A DNA stretch of 64,000 nt from an uncultured delta proteobacterium. GTDB lineage: Bacteria > Myxococcota > Myxococcia > Myxococcales > Anaeromyxobacteraceae. Below the pieces are notes generated by a model. The model made no database searches. It was not told where the DNA came from and worked only from the letters and a program-made list of their open reading frames with translations. Below, one piece after another: positions 1,843 to 7,782 of this stretch. Numbering within the stretch: position 1 is the stretch's first letter; each line of letters begins with the position of its first letter. The position numbers and the translations under genes are program-made. The DNA is taken from positions 544,001 through 608,000 of the forward strand of contig CAWFDF010000008.1 of NCBI GenBank assembly GCA_963814585.1, written 5' to 3'.

Positions 1843-2673
1843 GTGCGGCGGTTCGTGACCATCGACCTGGAGACGGTACCCGACGAGGAGCTGGTGGCCT
1901 CGGTCGGGCGCCACGGGGGAGCCAGCTACGCCGAGCAGCTGAAGCGGGTGGTCGCCGATCGGCGCGCCCGCACCGGCGGCCGCAGCGACTTCCTCCCGCT
2001 TCCCTACCACCGCCCCGTGGCCGCCTGCCTGCTCGAGGCCGTGGAGGAGCGCGGGCTGGTGACGCCCACCGACGCCGTGTGCTGGACCGATCAGAAGGAG
2101 CCGGAGGCGCGGTTCCTCGAGCGGGTCTGGGCGCGGCTGGAGGGCGCCACCGCCATCACCTTCCACGGCGGCGGGTTCGACCTGCCGGTCCTGGCGCTCC
2201 GGTCCCTGAAGCTGCGGGTGCCGGCGCCGGGCTGGTCCGGCGAGGCGCGCCGGGGCGGGTCGCCGGCCCACGTCGACGTCAAGGAGCTGCTGGCCGGCGC
2301 CGGCTCGGGGGGCGCGGCGCCGCTCGACCTCTACGCCAAGCTGGTGGGCCTGCCGGGCAAGGTGGACGTGGCCGGGGAGGACGTCGGCGCGCTCTACGCC
2401 GCCGGGGCCCACGACCGGATCGCCGCCTACTGCATGACCGACGTGATCCAGACCTGGCTGCTCTGGCTGCGCCACCGGCTGGTCGACGGCTCGCTCACGC
2501 ACGACGGCTACGAGGAGAGCGCCGCGGCCGCGCAGGCCCGGCTGCCGGCGCTGCTCTCGGCTCGCCTCTCGCCGGGCGAGCTGGTCTCGCTCGCGGACTT
2601 CCTCGAGCGCTGCGCCCCGTTCTTCTGCGAGTCGCGCCCGGCCCGGCACGACGTCCGCCGCGCCTCCGGTTAG
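1843..2673 (+). CDS. Stand-alone PolB-related 3'-5' exonuclease (DnaQ-like fold)
   Basis: ExoI DLETVPD, ExoII GFDLPVL, LPGKxDV, ExoIII YCMTDV. Confidence 0.85.
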   Translation: MRRFVTIDLETVPDEELVASVGRHGGASYAEQLKRVVADRRARTGGRSDFLPLPYHRPVAACLLEAVEERGLVTPTDAVCWTDQKEPEARFLERVWARLEGATAITFHGGGFDLPVLALRSLKLRVPAPGWSGEARRGGSPAHVDVKELLAGAGSGGAAPLDLYAKLVGLPGKVDVAGEDVGALYAAGAHDRIAAYCMTDVIQTWLLWLRHRLVDGSLTHDGYEESAAAAQARLPALLSARLSPGELVSLADFLERCAPFFCESRPARHDVRRASG

Positions 2674-2713
2674 TGCCTGGGGCGCGGCACTGGTTCCCCG
2701 AACCAGGCTGGCC

Positions 2714-2750
2714 CTCCCTGCGGCGTCACCTACGCCGCGTTGCGGGAGCT
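2714..2750 (-). promoter_or_regulatory. Putative bacterial SECIS element
   Basis: mRNA UGA-AG-CUCCC-GCAAC-GCGGCGU-AGGUG-ACGCCGC-A-GGGAG: lower 5-bp stem, upper 7-bp stem, G-containing 5-nt apical loop starting after 19 nt. Confidence 0.7.
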
Positions 2751-3254
2751 TCAGCCGGGGCGCCACGGCGGCTCGGCGCCACCATCGGGAGAGACCGTCG
2801 GCGGGGCCAGCCCGAGCAGCGCCGCCGCGCTCGCCGCCAGCCGGTTGGCGTCCTCCCGGCTCCACCCCTCCGCGGCCGCGACGATCCGGCCCCCCCGATC
2901 GACGAGGATCCACGTCGGCGTGACCCTCGCGCCCAGCGCGTCCGAGGCCCGCCACGGCTCGGGATCGCGCAGCACCCGGACCTTCCCGGCCCAGCCGCAG
3001 GCCTCCGCGAAGGCGGCCGTCCCGGCCTGGTCGTCCTGCGAGATGGCGAGGACCCGGAGGCCGTCCAGGCCGGCGAAGCGGGGCAGCACCAGCCCCGCCA
3101 CCGCGGTGGCGGGACAGTCGGCCTTGTAGACGAAGAGGAGCGCCGGCCCCTCCCCCTCCAGCGACCGGAGCGGGACCGGTGCGCCGACCTCGTCGGAGAC
3201 CTCGGCGGCTGGGAGGAGGGCACCGGCCGCGAGCTGGGGCGGGAGCGCGGGCAT
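2730..3254 (-). CDS. AhpC/TSA thioredoxin-fold redoxin; probable selenoprotein (UGA at 2751-2753 read as Sec, true stop TAG at 2730-2732)
   Basis: YKADCPAT, VLAISQD, VTPTWILVD. C-terminus reads PWRPG-UGA-SSRNAA-UAG with a SECIS-like hairpin directly 3' of the UGA. Without recoding the CDS ends at 2751. Confidence 0.8.
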
Positions 3255-3308
3255 GCCGGCATGCTGCCCCGGCCCGCCCCGCCACGCAACGGCCGGCCTG
3301 GAAGACGG

Positions 3309-3341
3309 CACGGCCGGCCCGGGTGCCCCCGGCCGGCCGTG
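3309..3341 (-). terminator. GC-rich stem-loop downstream of the small basic ORF
   Basis: CACGGCCGGCC / GGCCGGCCGTG, 11-bp inverted repeat. Confidence 0.45.
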
Positions 3342-3368
3342 GACCTGTGCTGCGCCTGGCGCCTTCGA

Positions 3369-3500
3369 CTAGCGGGGGCCCTTCTTGGCGCGACGCTTGC
3401 GCTTGATCGACAGGGCCCGCTTCCGCTTCACCTGCGCCCGCTTCGGCTTGCTGCGGTGCGACGCCTTGCGCTTCGAACGATTGCCCTTGATGGCGGCCAT
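3369..3500 (-). CDS. 43-aa Lys/Arg-rich small protein (not in the ORF track)
   Basis: AGGAGGAGGA Shine-Dalgarno just before the ATG; MAAIKGNRSKRKASHRSKPKRAQVKRKRALSIKRKRRAKKGPR*; third positions almost all G/C. Confidence 0.8.
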   Translation of the reverse strand: MAAIKGNRSKRKASHRSKPKRAQVKRKRALSIKRKRRAKKGPR

Positions 3501-3539
3501 GCGGTCCTCCTCCTGATCCTGGTTGAAAGCGGCGGCAAT

Positions 3540-4643
3540 CTACTCCAGCCAGTCCTTGTCGCGAAGCTTCTTCGGCAGGTACTCCTCGGTGATGAAGCTG
3601 ATGCCCCGCCGCGAGAGGGCCTCCAGCTCGAACTTCAGGCCGGAGCGGACCATCTCCTGGATCTCCCGCTGCCACCGCTTGTCGGCGAACCAGGGGTAGG
3701 CCAGCATCTGCCTGGCGCGCGCCACGTCGCCGTCGTCCATCTTGATGGCCACGTTCATGGGCAGCTGGTACTTGTCCTTGTCGAAGCTGGAGAGCCCGAC
3801 GAAGCGGGCCGAGGGCACCGCCATCCGCATCGACTCGTAGGCCAGGTTGATCGATCCCTGCTTCATCACCGAGTAGATGTAGAAGCCCCACGGATCGTTG
3901 TCGACCAGCACGTAGACCGGCAGGCGCAGCTCGGCGTGGAGCCGCTGCACCATGCGCCGGACCCCGCGCGGCGGCTGGCCTCCGCCCTGGACGATGATGC
4001 ACCGCTCCCGCTTCCAGAACTTGTCCTCGTTGAAGCGGCTCCAGACGGCGTCCTTCTCGATGAGGAGGACGTACCTGGCCTCGTGCTTGCCGAACTGGAC
4101 GACGTTCTCCTCGACGATGGAGGGCACGGCCCAGCCGCCCGAGCCCATTCGCCGGAGGTCGATGGTGTCCCCGGTGTCGCGGATGGTGACCGGGCCGACC
4201 ATCGAGCCCTTGCGCGACGCGAAGAGGTGCAGCTCCTCGCGCAGGGCGTCGAGCGAGACCTCGAGGTCCTCGATGATGGGGTCCGACTCGTCCTGCTCCT
4301 CGAAGGTGTTCTGCCTCGAGTCGCCGATGGTGTGCTTGGTGATGTAGTAGAGGTCGCGGATGCTGGTGGTCTTGCCGCTCTCCACCAGCTCCTTGCAGGC
4401 GTCCGAGACCAGGAAGGTCTGCATGAACTTCTTGGCCATCGCCACGTTGAAGAAGTAGCGCTTCTGCTTCTGGCTCCCCAGCTGCACCACGCCCTTCTTC
4501 TTGTCGAAGTGGACGTTGGCCAGCGAGCGGATGGGGATCTCCACGAAGGGGTTCTTCCTCCCCTTCACCGCCTTCAGCACGCCCTCGGCGAGCCGCTCGA
4601 TCTTGTCGACCGTCCTCTTGGAAACCGCGTCCAGGCGAGCCAT
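3540..4643 (-). CDS. top6A: DNA topoisomerase VI subunit A (Spo11-like)
   Basis: IRDLYY (catalytic Tyr), EQDESDPIIEDLE, toprim IEKDA and DNDPWG, ELEAL. Confidence 0.95.
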   Translation of the reverse strand: MARLDAVSKRTVDKIERLAEGVLKAVKGRKNPFVEIPIRSLANVHFDKKKGVVQLGSQKQKRYFFNVAMAKKFMQTFLVSDACKELVESGKTTSIRDLYYITKHTIGDSRQNTFEEQDESDPIIEDLEVSLDALREELHLFASRKGSMVGPVTIRDTGDTIDLRRMGSGGWAVPSIVEENVVQFGKHEARYVLLIEKDAVWSRFNEDKFWKRERCIIVQGGGQPPRGVRRMVQRLHAELRLPVYVLVDNDPWGFYIYSVMKQGSINLAYESMRMAVPSARFVGLSSFDKDKYQLPMNVAIKMDDGDVARARQMLAYPWFADKRWQREIQEMVRSGLKFELEALSRRGISFITEEYLPKKLRDKDWLE

Positions 4644-4646
4644 GGG

Positions 4647-6723
4647 CTACTCCGCCTCCTCTTCGCCGCGCCGCGGCCGACGGGTGAGCTTCTCGCTGGC
4701 CTCTTCCAGCTTCCTGTCCTCGGCGGCCAGATCGGCCTCCGTCACCTGGCCGGCCACCCTGAGGAAGTCGCGCTGGATGCCGTCGCGGCTCTTCCCGGTG
4801 ATGCGGTGGATGGCGTCGGCCACCTCCTCGATGTAGAGCTCGAAGATGGAGCGGCGCTGCGCCTGGTAGTCGGCCTGCTGCTTCTTGCGGATGAAGGTGG
4901 CCAGCTTGCGCCCGCACTCCTGCGCGGCCAGCTGGATCTCGCGGATGATCTCGGGGTAGTGGGCCAGCGCCTCCTTGGCCTCGCTGGTGAACGGCACCCA
5001 CACCGAGGCGATGTGGACCAGCAGGGCCATGGGCCCGACCGGCAGCGAGCCCTTGGGCTGCGAGAGCATGTAGTTTCGCCAGTCGGTCTTGACGATCGAC
5101 TCGGTCATCCCGCAGGCACTGCGCTGGAAGAGCAGCGGCACCCGGTTGGCGAAGCGGAAGAGCTCGATGGTCTTGTCGGCCGGCCAGGAGCCGCCGTAGG
5201 CCAGGCCGACCTCCACCTGGAACGGGTTGCCGCGATAGACCTTGGGAGGGCGGGTCACCGTGGCGATGAAGTAGTCGTGCCCCTTGATCTTCTCGACCCC
5301 CTCCTCCGGCGTCGCCGGCGGCACCGGCGGCGGCGCCACCTCGGCGGCCCTTCCCTTCCTCCTGGTGGCCTTCTTCTTGGCGGCGGCGTCGAGGTCGAGC
5401 TGGCCGTCCTCCTCCTCCGGGCCCTCCGACTCGATGACCGAGAGGAAGCTCACCAGCCCGCGCCGCATCAGCTCGTCGCCGATGGGGCTGAGGCAGCCGG
5501 TGGACGGCGCCATGATCCTGGTGGCCAGGATCCCGCTGCGCAGCTTCTCGGCCAGCGCGCGGTCCCCGCCGATCTCCCGCGGGCGCAGCCGCTCCTTCAG
5601 GCCCGCGTTCCTCAGGATCTCGGCGGCCACCGGCGGCGACACCCGGCTGAAGGCGGTCTGCAGGAAGCCCTTCAGGTCGTGGCTCTTCGACTCCGAGGCC
5701 ATGAGCATGAGGGCGCCCAGCTCGACGCCGTGCGGGTGCGGCTTGATCTCGAGGGCCTCCTTGGGCAGCTCCTCGGTGGCGCGCGGGAAGGTGAGCAGCG
5801 GCTGGCGAGGCCGCTGGTAGTGCACGGTGGCGTGCGGGTTGGCGAGCGCGGTGTGCTCCACGTAGCGGTTGACGAACCGCTGCCCGGTCCGCCAGTCGGC
5901 CACGATCTCGAGCTCGATGCGGGTGCCGTGGTCCAGGTGCCAGTCGCGCTGCTCCTCGTCGGCCACCACCGTGGGGTTGTTCTTGCGGGTGTCGATCTGG
6001 ATCTCGAAGACGTGGGCCGGCTTGCCCCTCCCGGTGCGCGAGGTCACGCGGATGGGCCGGCCGGTGGTCAGCTGGCCGTACATGGCCGCCGCCGAGATGC
6101 CGATGCCCTGCTGGCCTCGCGACTGCTTGAGCCGGTGGAACTTGGAGCCGTAGAGCAGCTTGCCGAAGATCTTGGGGACCTGCGCCTTGACGATGCCGGG
6201 GCCGTTGTCCTCGACGATGACCACGAAGCGCCCTTCGCCCCTGGTCAGCTCCCCCTGGCCCTTGGCGTCGAGCCCGAGGTCGCGGACCTCGATGGTCAGC
6301 TCGGGGAGGATGCCGGCCTCCTCGCAGGCGTCGAGCGAGTTGTCCACCGCCTCCTTGATGGTGGTGAGCAGCGCCTTGGAGGGGTTGTCGAAGCCGAGCA
6401 GGTGCCGGTTCTTGGTGAAGAACTCGGAGATGGAGATCTCCCGCTGCTTGGTGGCCATCTGCTCGGCGGTGGCGCGGCGCCTGGGCTTCCGGTCCAGCTC
6501 GCGGGACGGCTCGACGGGCCCGCCCGGCGCTTCGACCGCCGCTGGGGGAGGCGGCGCGGCCGGAACCCTGGCCGCCTTCGGCCTGGCCTTCGCCGGCGCA
6601 GCCTTCCCCGGCCGTGCCGGGGCCCTGGCCGGCGCCACGTCGAGCAGCGAGAGCTGCCGTTCCGCCCTGGCGGACCCCGTGAGCCTTCCCCTTCGCCGCC
6701 GCCGCCTTCTTGGTTGCCGCCAT
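4647..6723 (-). CDS. top6B: DNA topoisomerase VI subunit B (probable 1-nt insertion near 6675-6691 in the N-terminal extension)
   Basis: REISISEFFTKNRHLLGF, EAVDNSLDA, EDNGPGI, LLYGSKF, SRGQQGIG, RFANRVPLL, VPFTSEAKE. ATG 6723 (MAATKKAAAAK) is 1 nt out of frame with the body; in-frame ATG at 6458 is an alternative start. Confidence 0.93.
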
Positions 6724-6828
6724 GGTCCCCTAAACCCTCGCGATATCGAACGCTTCCGGTCTAGCACGCGGCCCCCGGAGGCGCGACAAAACGGCTCCCG
6801 GGATTGACCTTTCCAGGGGGGTGGTTAC

Positions 6829-7782
6829 ATGAGGACCATGCCATTCGATCCCGCCAGAACCGCCAGGAATCCTGCCGCTCCCCGACCCGCCCCGGCCGGC
6901 GCGCCGCCTGCCGGCGTCGGCCGCAACTACGCCCGCACCGCCGTGCTCATGGGCGGCCTGGTGGCGCTGCTGGCCATCGGCGGCAGCCTGGTCGGCGGAC
7001 CCCGGGGGATGCTCGCCTTCGGCGCCATCGGCCTCGTCTTCAACTTCCTCGCCTACTGGTTCTCCGACAAGCTGGCGCTCCTGGGCAATGGCGCCCGCCC
7101 GGTCGAGCGGGCCGACCTGCCCGAGGTGTACGAGATCGTGGAGCGGCTGACGCGCCGGGCCGGCCTGCCCATGCCGCGCATCTACGTCATCCCCTCCGAG
7201 GCCCCCAACGCCTTCGCCACCGGCCGCGATCCGGAGCACGCCGCCGTGGCCGTCACCGCGGGGATCCTCCGGATCCTCGACCGGCGCCAGCTGGAGGGCG
7301 TGCTGGCCCACGAGCTGGCCCACGTCCAGAACCGGGACATCCTCATCGCCACGGTGGCGGGGGCCATCGCCGGGCTCATCTCCACCATCGGCTACGTGAT
7401 GCGCTGGGGCGCCATCCTCGGCGGCGGCCGCAGCGACCGCGAGGACGGGCCGAGCGGCCTGGAGCTGCTGGCCTGGGCCATCGTGGCGCCGCTGGTGGCG
7501 CTGGTCATCCAGCTGGCCATCTCCCGCTCGCGCGAGTTCGGGGCCGACGCCACCGGCGCCGCGCTGGTGGGAGACCCCGAGCCGCTGGCGCAGGCGCTGC
7601 TCACGCTGGAGCGAGGCAACGACCTCTCCCCCATGGCCTCGGCCGGCCCGGCCACCGCCCACCTCTTCATCGTCAACCCGCTGCGCGGCGGGGTCGGGAA
7701 GGTGCTGTCCTTCTTCTCGACCCACCCGCCGGTCGAGGAGCGGGTGGCCCGGCTGCGGGCGCTGCGCGGCCAGCTGCGGTAG
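6829..7782 (+). CDS. htpX: Zinc metalloprotease HtpX (M48)
   Basis: PNAFATGR, HELAHVQNRD, ISRSREFGADA, FSTHPP; start 6829 or 6838. Confidence 0.93.
   Translation: MRTMPFDPARTARNPAAPRPAPAGAPPAGVGRNYARTAVLMGGLVALLAIGGSLVGGPRGMLAFGAIGLVFNFLAYWFSDKLALLGNGARPVERADLPEVYEIVERLTRRAGLPMPRIYVIPSEAPNAFATGRDPEHAAVAVTAGILRILDRRQLEGVLAHELAHVQNRDILIATVAGAIAGLISTIGYVMRWGAILGGGRSDREDGPSGLELLAWAIVAPLVALVIQLAISRSREFGADATGAALVGDPEPLAQALLTLERGNDLSPMASAGPATAHLFIVNPLRGGVGKVLSFFSTHPPVEERVARLRALRGQLR

What the first reader, a model, noticed from the sequence alone, without database searches (positions are those of the whole stretch)
3369..3500. Uncalled 43-aa protamine-like protein directly behind topoisomerase VI
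Seen: strong RBS, 21 of 43 residues K/R, no acidic residues, start 39 nt after the top6A stop on the same strand, hairpin downstream. Inference: a nucleic-acid-binding miniprotein. It could be a DNA-condensing or accessory partner of bacterial topo VI (plant topo VI needs accessory subunits), or a small ribosome-associated protein of the bS22/bTHX type.
Basis: partly seen in the sequence, partly recalled or inferred. Interest (0 to 1): 0.7.

Follow-up and report, generated by a model that had tools for sequence, protein, structure and literature searches.

The report
Conserved basic miniprotein, not topo-VI-specific
A real, conserved gene for a 43-residue, extremely basic protein sits right behind topoisomerase VI in this bacterium, but related bacteria keep the same gene beside translation genes and often have no topoisomerase VI at all, so it is likely a small ribosome- or RNA-binding protein rather than a topoisomerase partner.

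Summary
Window 3369..3500 (minus strand) encodes a 43-aa protein with 21 K/R and no D/E. It has an AGGAGGAGG Shine-Dalgarno, starts 39 nt after the top6A stop, and is followed by a GC-rich hairpin.

It is a genuine gene. It is intact in all 43 Anaeromyxobacteraceae loci fetched. In-frame dN/dS is 0.43-0.58, against 0.9-1.2 in shifted frames. A recognisable family (M-A/P-x-x-K-G-N-R-S/T-K-K/R-K ... N-R-S/A-K ... K-R-K/R-R) spans the order Myxococcales.

The topo VI link is lineage-specific. A profile finds the peptide in 99 of 115 genomes of the large-genome family f6 (taken as Myxococcaceae), but only 4 of 115 of them have top6A. In nine genomes with both genes they are unlinked. There the peptide gene lies head-to-head with prfA (12 of 13 loci) or downstream of rpsA.

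No Pfam, NCBIfam or PDB sequence family matches it, including bS22/COX24_C, eL41, bL32 and bL34.

Best reading (about 0.45): an undescribed, largely unannotated ribosome-associated polycation of the bS22/bTHX kind. This is inferred, not shown. A topo VI accessory role restricted to Anaeromyxobacteraceae remains possible (about 0.12).

The parts
3369..3500 (-). 43-codon ORF plus TAG stop for the basic miniprotein (5.0 kDa, pI 12)
   Evidence: Intact orthologues in 43 of 43 f1 loci and 18 of 18 loci fetched outside f1. dN/dS 0.58 order-wide and 0.43 within f1, against 1.23 and 0.92 in shifted frames.
3506..3514 (-). Shine-Dalgarno AGGAGGAGG, 5 nt before the ATG
   Evidence: A GGAG-type SD sits at the same place in the 20 f1 loci listed and in most non-f1 loci.
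3537..3542 (-). -10-like hexamer TAGATT overlapping the top6A stop codon: a possible own promoter (inferred, weak)
   Evidence: In 14 of 38 distinct f1 loci a TTGAC(C/G)-N16-18-nA(G/C)ACT promoter-like pair lies between top6A and the peptide gene. In the window's genus only the -10-like box is kept, and the best -35 matches 3 of 6.
3309..3341 (-). G+C-rich hairpin (11-bp stem) 28 nt after the stop; terminator-like but without a U-tract
   Evidence: z -1.74. Across 26 family loci the 70 nt after the stop have mean z -1.71, with 15 of 26 below -1.64, and the stems differ in sequence.
3540..4643 (-). top6A (context: upstream neighbour on the same strand)
   Evidence: NF003333, 613 bits, over cut-off; TP6A_N, Toprim.
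4647..6767 (-). top6B (context)
   Evidence: NF003218, 747 bits; Topo-VIb_trans, HATPase_c.

Best explanation
The ORF is a real protein-coding gene of an undescribed miniprotein family found across the order Myxococcales, and it likely acts as a small rRNA-bound (ribosome-associated) polycation rather than as a topoisomerase VI subunit.

Shown: the gene, its conservation, its compact unit (SD, 37-44 codons, hairpin), and the fact that its position behind top6A is confined to the Anaeromyxobacteraceae.

Inferred: the 5-kDa, +20 peptide is predicted to form short N-terminal turns plus one long helix. It would sit in an RNA pocket of the ribosome, as bS22, eL41, bTHX or bL34 do, using a conserved N-terminal motif (G6 N7 R8 S9 K10 ... 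N15 R16 S/A17 K18) for specific contacts. In Anaeromyxobacteraceae it is probably transcribed both by read-through from top6BA and, in many genera, from its own promoter.
For: 1. Real gene. It has ATG, SD and stop in 43 of 43 f1 loci (38 distinct) and in 18 of 18 non-f1 loci. dN/dS is 0.58 (283 of 308 pairs below 1) against 1.23 and 0.92 in shifted frames, and 0.43 within f1 (184 of 189 pairs below 1).

2. Order-wide and single copy. Profile A1 hits f1 39/39, f6 99/115, f3 4/5, f4 5/8, f9 1/1 and f2 1/1, with one hit per genome and none in any family outside the order.

3. Dissociated from topo VI.

4. Translation-gene neighbours elsewhere. It is head-to-head with prfA-prmC at 51-166 nt in 12 of 13 f6 loci. 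rpsA is the next gene upstream on the same strand in L091, and 1.8 kb upstream in L080.

5. Specific non-basic residues are conserved (N7, N15 at 90% or more; R8, K10, R16 invariant). This fits a defined binding site better than bulk charge.

6. Composition class. In this genome the only other SD-preceded ORFs of this kind are bL34 and one other unannotated ORF.

7. Arg codons of the 20 f1 orthologues (CGC .72, CGG .21, AGG .01) resemble r-proteins plus EF-G (.64/.26/.03) more than the background (.47/.39/.08).

8. AF2 with the family alignment gives mean pLDDT 81 and a helix over residues 18-40.

9. Precedent. bS22 of Borrelia was unannotated, about 30 aa and 61% K/R, and its authors expected more such cases (PMC10618245, passages read).

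10. The genome has no detectable PF08213-type bS22.
Against: There is no direct evidence of ribosome binding. No similarity was found to any ribosomal family: Pfam and NCBIfam give nothing at E <= 1 for the window's peptide. Among 26 members, one matches Ribosomal_L41 at E 0.75 and one matches ArfB at E 0.95, both chance-level. The PDB profile search gives only bL32m at E 1.2, and hhalign rejects that lead.

Language-model neighbours with a family name (DUF6800, COX24_C, Ribosomal_L41) score 0.76-0.79, below the tool's 0.9 lead threshold, and may reflect composition only.

The linkage to top6A is invariant within the Anaeromyxobacteraceae (all 40 f1 genomes; 43 of 43 loci). It is tighter than the linkage to the next gene downstream, which is kept in 10 of 20 loci. 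RNA-library contigs from two studies bridge the top6A 3' end and the ORF. Co-expression with topo VI in this family is therefore likely.

The prfA adjacency is divergent, not operonic, and f3 and f9 contexts show no translation genes. The codon comparison pools non-independent orthologues from other genomes against a background taken from one genome. In the window's own gene n is only 10 Arg codons (P = 0.025 for 2 or more CGT).
Confidence: 0.45

Rival explanations
1. This is a general nucleic-acid-binding polycation that is not a stoichiometric ribosomal protein. It could be a nucleoid-associated or DNA-condensing peptide, an RNA chaperone, or a ribosome-assembly or hibernation helper, and it would act by charge neutralisation wherever it is made.
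For: Net charge is +20.6 with no acidic residues. The gene context varies between families: top6A in f1, prfA in f6, rpsA in f4, PilZ or hydrolases in f3 and f4. No ribosomal family matches. The adjacency to a DNA topoisomerase in one family fits a DNA-side role.
Against: Position-specific conservation of uncharged residues (G6, N7, S9, N15, S/A17) holds over an order in which the C-terminal half drifts. That argues for a defined partner, not bulk condensation. The gene is single copy and only 37-44 aa. The translation-gene neighbours and r-protein-like Arg codons point to the translation apparatus.
Confidence: 0.25
2. In the Anaeromyxobacteraceae the peptide is an accessory partner of bacterial topo VI. 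It would be co-expressed from the top6B-top6A-peptide operon and would help the enzyme bind or bridge DNA.
For: Invariant same-strand adjacency, 30-150 nt behind top6A, in 43 of 43 f1 loci across at least 8 genera. The same holds in 38 of 40 named contigs; in the other two the top6A match is merely split. Some loci leave only about 30 nt, with no recognisable promoter between the genes (L029, L035, L038, L041). RNA-library contigs bridge the two genes (X16 record 1 and X18 record 17).
Against: There is a double dissociation across the order. The peptide occurs without topo VI (f6: peptide 99/115, top6A 4/115). Topo VI occurs without a peptide match (G028, G035, G030, G037, G270). The two are unlinked in 9 of 9 non-f1 genomes that have both, and in two of these (G226, G186) the peptide stays beside prfA. 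12 of 12 non-f1 top6A loci lack any basic small ORF downstream. 14 of 38 distinct f1 loci carry a promoter-like TTGAC-N16-18-nAGACT pair between the genes, so the peptide gene is at least partly autonomous. Within-family synteny can persist without function.
Confidence: 0.12
3. It is not a functional protein. It could be a leader peptide or attenuator ORF controlling a downstream gene, a small RNA, or a chance ORF in G+C-rich DNA.
For: The ORF is followed directly by a hairpin. Antisense frames are also open, as usual in 73% G+C DNA. No proteomic evidence was available.
Against: The amino-acid sequence, start, SD and stop are conserved over an order, with many synonymous changes and dN/dS below 1 only in this frame. 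In f6 the gene downstream is convergent (PGA_cap on the opposite strand), so there is nothing to attenuate. Downstream genes differ between lineages and are unrelated to Lys or Arg metabolism.
Confidence: 0.04

Closest known systems
bS22 (mycobacteria, Bacteroidia, Borrelia; analogue of mS38 and eL41)
   Same: Size class (30-40 aa against 43), about half or more K/R, helical prediction, usually missed by annotation, and a stand-alone small gene (PMC10618245, passages read).
   Different: No sequence match. PF08213 finds nothing in this genome, although it rings over its cut-off in the Corynebacterium control. It scores 1 of 301 Myxococcota, below cut-off. No solved bS22 chain matches the family profile at E <= 10. 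Ribosome binding is untested.
eL41 (PF05162)
   Same: A very short, almost purely K/R helix; the C-terminal KRKRRAKK stretch looks similar.
   Different: Only 1 of 26 members matches, at E 0.75, and the model does not find the ORF in the genome. eL41 has 25 residues and lacks the conserved GNRSK...NRSK N-terminal motif.
bL34 (rpmH) and bL32 (rpmF) N-terminal segments
   Same: bL34 is the only known protein of the same composition class in this genome. The N-terminus of a mitochondrial bL32 gave the sole PDB hit, at E 1.2.
   Different: Canonical rpmH and rpmF are present elsewhere in the genome, and their models do not hit this ORF. hhalign of the family against the genome's own bL32 gives probability 0.1%.
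bTHX (Thermus) and bL37/bL38 (lineage-specific small r-proteins)
   Same: Lineage-restricted, very small, basic, and discovered late. These properties are recalled from general knowledge and from the listing and abstracts.
   Different: No Pfam family of any kind matched. No structural or biochemical data exist for the present peptide.
Accessory subunits of plant topo VI (RHL1, BIN4; recalled, not retrieved here)
   Same: The idea that a type IIB topoisomerase can need extra small DNA-binding partners; here the gene is adjacent to top6A.
   Different: Those are much larger eukaryotic proteins. Here, co-occurrence with topo VI fails outside one family.

Membership tests
bS22 / COX24_C (PF08213) | Sequence match to the family model or to solved bS22 chains | tested here: not met
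   no Pfam hit at E <= 1 or 10; 0 matches in the genome; the control Corynebacterium is over cut-off; no bS22 chain at E <= 10.
bS22 / COX24_C (PF08213) | About 30-40 aa, half or more K/R, helical | tested here: met
   43 aa and 49% K/R. The AF2 model has a helix over 18-40 at pLDDT about 90. These features are not specific to bS22.
bS22 / COX24_C (PF08213) | Bound in the 16S h2/h27/h44/h45 pocket of the 30S subunit | not testable with these tools
   Needs ribosome purification with MS or cryo-EM.
eL41 (PF05162) | Match to the family model | tested here: not met
   1 of 26 members, E 0.75; the ORF is not among the matches.
bL32 (PF01783) | Match to the family model or to the genome's own bL32 | tested here: not met
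   canonical rpmF at C8:507758-507922; this ORF is not hit; hhalign probability 0.1%.
bL34 (PF00468) | Match to the family model | tested here: not met
   (canonical rpmH at C9:294956-295084; this ORF is not hit).
Topo VI accessory subunit | Co-occurrence and linkage with top6AB across taxa | tested here: not met
   The genes are linked only in f1. The peptide occurs without topo VI in at least 95 f6 genomes. The genes are unlinked in 9 of 9 non-f1 genomes that have both.
Topo VI accessory subunit | Physical binding to Top6A/B and an effect on activity | not testable with these tools
   Needs pull-down and enzyme assays.
Leader peptide / transcription attenuator | A regulated gene downstream on the same strand, after the terminator | tested here: not met
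   In f6 the downstream gene (PGA_cap) is convergent, and downstream genes differ between lineages.
Protamine-like / nucleoid-condensing polycation | Conservation of composition rather than of positions | tested here: inconclusive
   The N-terminal 28 positions are position-specifically conserved, while the C-terminal third keeps only its composition.

The most novel reading that the evidence does not exclude
An ancestral Myxococcales ribosome-bound miniprotein was recruited in the Anaeromyxobacteraceae as a third, DNA-binding subunit of bacterial topoisomerase VI. This would explain why it is welded to top6A in every genome of that family while living beside prfA or rpsA elsewhere. It would be a bacterial counterpart of the accessory subunits of plant topo VI and a case of a ribosomal peptide moonlighting on DNA.
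Probability: 0.08. Interest if true: 0.8.

Novelty: new variant of a known kind. Interest (0 to 1): 0.5.

Why it matters
If the favoured reading is right, an entire bacterial order carries a ribosome component that annotation pipelines miss. That order includes the model organism Myxococcus xanthus and the bioremediation genus Anaeromyxobacter. The peptide would join bS22, bTHX, bL37 and bL38 as evidence that bacterial ribosomes differ between lineages in small polycationic parts. Such differences matter for antibiotic binding, ribosome assembly and genome annotation.

Whatever the peptide does, the work gives a clean family definition, a phyletic range, cultured strains that carry the gene, and a simple test: top-down MS of purified ribosomes. 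It also removes a tempting but poorly supported claim about a bacterial topo VI cofactor.

Tried and rejected
- TAG stop as a signal linked to RF1/prfA. 36 of 38 distinct f1 loci and 13 of 18 non-f1 loci end in TAG. But TAG is 46% of the stops of long ORFs in this genome and relatives are not independent, so I dropped this.
- bL32 N-terminus lead (PDB hit at E 1.2). Rejected.
- Relationship between the peptide and the second basic small ORF on C14. hhalign gives probability 0.3%.
- Complementary distribution with a PF08213-type bS22. Uninformative, because the model finds essentially nothing in the phylum (1 of 301, below cut-off).
- DUF6800 (PF20607) lead from the language-model search. It does not hit the ORF, and no control genome is over cut-off.
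- Foldseek of the AF2 model against the PDB. No match at E <= 10, as expected for a 43-aa helix.
- Complex prediction of Top6A with the peptide (own alignments A3 and A1). The verdict was 'no answer', score 0.00 against a mark of 0.32, and controls were not run. This is evidence neither for nor against binding.
- Depth of metatranscriptome contigs. The peptide bins have much lower summed word depth than the top6A bins. The tool states that contig depth cannot rank genes and that the runs were found through the whole stretch, so I draw nothing from it. DNA carry-over in RNA libraries is also not excluded.
- Sigma-70 and terminator consensus scan of 2600-7000. It found 0 promoters and 0 terminators. 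The consensus used is too A+T-rich for this genome.
- Earlier scan notes. Nothing was found by sequence or by words.
- Literature. No paper in the searchable library contains any of four 8-residue motifs of the family. The searches (listings and abstracts only) showed no Myxococcus ribosome structure with a new protein and no M. xanthus small-ORF survey.
- The supplements of PMC10618245, which hold bS22 sequences, were not read.

Full report
WHAT IS THERE. The ORF lies on the minus strand of the window, from 3500 down to 3369 including a TAG stop. It encodes 43 residues: 11 Lys, 10 Arg, no Asp or Glu, 5022 Da, pI 12, net charge about +20.6. An AGGAGGAGG Shine-Dalgarno sequence (3506-3514) ends 5 nt before the ATG. 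The gene directly upstream on the same strand is top6A (3540..4643; NF003333, 613 bits against a cut-off of 465), preceded by top6B (4647..6767; NF003218). The gap between the top6A stop and the ATG is 39 nt. Twenty-eight nt after the stop there is an 11-bp G+C stem (3309-3341). It has no U-tract, and in the window alone it is only marginally better than shuffles: z -1.74, with 13 of 200 shuffles as good. The only addition is that the feature lies on the minus strand.

IS IT A GENE? Yes.
- A protein query finds it in all 12 other genomes of the genus (E <= 1e-11) and, more weakly, in the 12 further genomes of the family sampled in that call.
- In the 20 loci first fetched, the ORF is intact, 37-44 codons long, begins with ATG behind an SD, and stops.
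- Over all 43 loci fetched from the family (38 distinct) the same holds.
- Third codon positions vary most (0.31 against 0.19 and 0.18).
- Nei-Gojobori dN/dS over the well-aligned first 30 codons of 26 order-wide members has a median of 0.58, with 283 of 308 usable pairs below 1. The same nucleotide alignment read in the two shifted frames gives 1.23 and 0.92. Within the family the median is 0.43, with 184 of 189 pairs below 1.
- The organism is an Anaeromyxobacteraceae MAG, going by the names.
- The gene is almost never called. There are 10 proteins among 5.8 billion and 48 clusters among 1.84 billion representatives read exhaustively by HMMER. All carry no name or 'hypothetical protein'.
- 46 of the 48 clusters are 31-83 aa. 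The two long ones (365 and 167 aa) look like read-through gene calls.

HOW FAR DOES IT REACH, AND IS IT TIED TO TOPO VI? I searched 301 genomes spread over the phylum twice: once with a profile of the peptide and once with the top6A model.
- The peptide is found in f1 (Anaeromyxobacteraceae) 39/39, f6 99/115, f3 4/5, f4 5/8, f9 1/1 and f2 1/1. It is not found in f5, f7 or f8, nor in any family outside the order. There is one hit per genome.
- I take f6 to be Myxococcaceae. Its genomes are 9-13 Mb, and one family member is recorded from Citreicoccus inhibens.
- top6A is found in f1 39/39 but in only 4/115 of f6.
- Nine genomes outside f1 have both genes (G218, G226, G186, G275, G026, G033, G038, G210, G032). 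In all nine the genes are on different contigs or at least 83 kb apart. G218 is flagged unpublished, and the count stands at 8 of 8 without it.
- Five genomes have a top6A over the cut-off but no peptide match at E <= 0.01 (G028, G035, G030, G037, G270).
- In 12 of 12 non-f1 top6A loci there is no ORF of 25-90 aa with at least 35% K/R starting within 400 nt downstream.
- The weak profile hits outside f1 are genuine. All 18 loci fetched hold an ATG-started ORF of 34-42 codons with the shared motif M-(A/P)-x-x-K-G-N-R-(S/T)-K-(K/R)-K-x-x-N-R-(S/A)-K ... K-R-(K/R)-R. Two of them also have a longer upstream-extended frame.

Within the Anaeromyxobacteraceae, however, the linkage is invariant: 43 of 43 loci have top6A ending 30-150 nt upstream on the same strand. 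The same holds for 38 of 40 named contigs, among them cultured Anaeromyxobacter sp. PSR-1, A. soli, A. terrae and A. oryzisoli. In the other two contigs the top6A match is only split. That sample overlaps the first one in species.

WHAT SITS NEXT TO IT ELSEWHERE.
- In 12 of 13 f6 loci the gene is head-to-head with prfA (release factor 1), which is followed by prmC. The two start codons are 51-166 nt apart. In the thirteenth locus prfA is 3.3 kb away.
- The gene on the other side, a PGA_cap-family gene, is convergent.
- In one f4 genome (L091) the peptide gene is the next gene after rpsA on the same strand, 180 nt behind it. In the other (L080) rpsA is 1.8 kb upstream.
- In f3 and f9 the neighbours are hydrolases, PilZ or MlaC-like genes, with no obvious theme.
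- In two f6 genomes that do have topo VI (G226, G186) the peptide gene still sits by prfA.

A COMPACT, PARTLY AUTONOMOUS UNIT. Across 26 diverse loci the 70 nt after the stop fold better than dinucleotide shuffles: mean z -1.71, with 15 of 26 below -1.64. They form long G+C stems of unrelated sequence, some with U-runs. Between top6A and the ORF, 14 of 38 distinct f1 loci carry a promoter-like TTGAC(C/G)-N16-18-nA(G/C)ACT pair 22-48 nt before the ATG. In the window's genus the gap is too short for that. A -10-like TAGATT overlaps the top6A stop codon (3537-3542), and the best -35 matches only 3 of 6, so an own promoter here is an inference. A few loci show no promoter-like sequence at all. Contigs from two metatranscriptome studies, from relatives about 90-94% identical, bridge the 3' end of top6A and the ORF: X16 record 1 covers 3350-3673 and X18 record 17 covers 3405-3555. 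This fits read-through transcription, but it comes from contigs, and DNA carry-over is not excluded.

WHAT IS IT LIKE? No curated family matches.
- Pfam and NCBIfam give nothing at E <= 1 for the window's peptide. For 26 members at E <= 10 there are only two chance-level single hits: Ribosomal_L41 at 0.75 and ArfB at 0.95.
- A family profile against all PDB chain sequences gives one hit at E 1.2, the N-terminus of a mitochondrial bL32. The genome has canonical rpmF and rpmH elsewhere, and hhalign against its own bL32 gives probability 0.1%.
- The Pfam model that covers actinobacterial bS22 and mS38 (PF08213) finds nothing in this genome, although it rings over its cut-off in the Corynebacterium control. 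It finds 1 of 301 genomes of the phylum, below cut-off.
- The eL41 and DUF6800 models do not find the ORF.
- Language-model neighbours are first the family's own unnamed clusters (0.94-0.96). The nearest named clusters, at 0.76-0.79 and below the tool's lead threshold, are DUF6800, COX24_C and Ribosomal_L41. The same pattern appears for a 45%-identical family member. I treat this as a composition-level lead only.
- AlphaFold2 with the family alignment gives mean pLDDT 81, short N-terminal turns and one long helix over residues 18-40. Foldseek finds nothing.

WHY I FAVOUR A RIBOSOME-ASSOCIATED ROLE (INFERENCE).
1. The gene is order-wide, single-copy, and independent of any one neighbour.
2. Where neighbours have a theme outside f1, it is translation (prfA-prmC, rpsA).
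3. Uncharged positions (G6, N7, S9, N15, S/A17) are conserved across the order while the C-terminal third keeps only its charge. That fits a defined RNA pocket better than bulk DNA condensation.
4. In this genome the only other SD-preceded ORFs of the same composition class are bL34 and one further unannotated ORF.
5. Arg-codon choice in the 20 f1 orthologues (CGC .72, CGG .21, AGG .01) is closer to a Pfam-confirmed set of r-proteins plus EF-G (.64/.26/.03) than to 773 long background ORFs (.47/.39/.08). This comes with the caveats of pooling and non-independence.
6. There is precedent. bS22 of Borrelia was unannotated, about 30 aa and 61% K/R, and was found only in the cryo-EM map. Its authors expected further cases (PMC10618245, passages read).

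None of this shows binding to a ribosome, so I put this reading at about 0.45.

RIVALS.
- A non-ribosomal nucleic-acid binder, such as a nucleoid protein or RNA chaperone, is about 0.25.
- A topo VI accessory role restricted to the Anaeromyxobacteraceae keeps about 0.12, because of the invariant linkage and likely co-transcription there.
- A non-protein or leader-peptide reading is about 0.04. Frame-specific conservation argues against it, as does the convergent downstream gene in f6.

The single complex-prediction job (Top6A with the peptide) gave no verdict and is listed only among the things tried.

NOVELTY AND VALUE. The family is undescribed. No name exists in any source, no family model covers it, and none of four motif strings appears in the searchable literature. 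The kind of object, a lineage-specific, unannotated polycationic miniprotein, is known. I therefore rate it a new variant of a known kind, with moderate interest (0.5). It is a well-defined, easily testable candidate for a new ribosomal component in an order that contains a major model organism. It also corrects an attractive but unsupported topo VI story.

Noticed in passing
G000:C14:420376-420483, minus strand (= L114:2977-3084); outside the window: A second unannotated basic small ORF: 35 aa, 15 K/R, no D/E, with a GAAGGAG SD. A single-protein query finds it in 26/30 f1, 4/4 f5, 1/1 f7, 6/30 f8 and 0/31 f6 genomes. It has no Pfam hit and is unrelated to the present family by hhalign. It is another candidate small ribosomal or nucleic-acid-binding protein.
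   Followed up: partly
L075:4111-4264 and the equivalent intergenic regions of L076, L078, L079, L083, L084, L088, L092: The 150-166-nt spacer between the peptide gene and the divergent prfA in Myxococcaceae-type genomes holds nearly invariant blocks (GTCAAGAAAtTCCTTGG; GAGCrTGAAAgAAGGGC). It also holds a 5-bp hairpin with one covarying pair (G-C to A-U in 3 of 8). This is possibly a shared regulatory region.
   Followed up: partly
window 3369-3371 and orthologues: 36 of 38 distinct Anaeromyxobacteraceae copies and 13 of 18 copies elsewhere end in TAG. TAG is 46% of the stops of long ORFs in this genome, so this is not remarkable.
   Followed up: yes
window 6474-6767 (minus strand), the first ~98 codons of the top6B ORF: The top6B ORF as listed starts at a GTG. 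It carries about 98 Arg/Pro/Ala-rich residues before the NF003218 match begins at residue 99. This is either a basic N-terminal extension of the B subunit or an over-extended start.
   Followed up: no
window 2751-3311 (minus strand): The gene downstream of the peptide is a thioredoxin-fold protein with AhpC/TSA and Redoxin hits just below the Pfam cut-offs. It is kept near the peptide gene in only 10 of 20 family loci, so it is linked less tightly than top6A.
   Followed up: partly
window 3540-4643 (top6A): Contigs from four soil and sediment metatranscriptome libraries cover most of top6A at 85-99% identity. This suggests that bacterial topo VI of this lineage is expressed in the environment. 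DNA carry-over is not excluded.
   Followed up: no
L101:13561-14952, minus strand (G000:C14, r-protein cluster): One 464-aa open frame hits uL4, uL23 and the N-terminal domain of uL2. It is probably an artefact of my first-start ORF caller or an assembly frameshift in the MAG.
   Followed up: no
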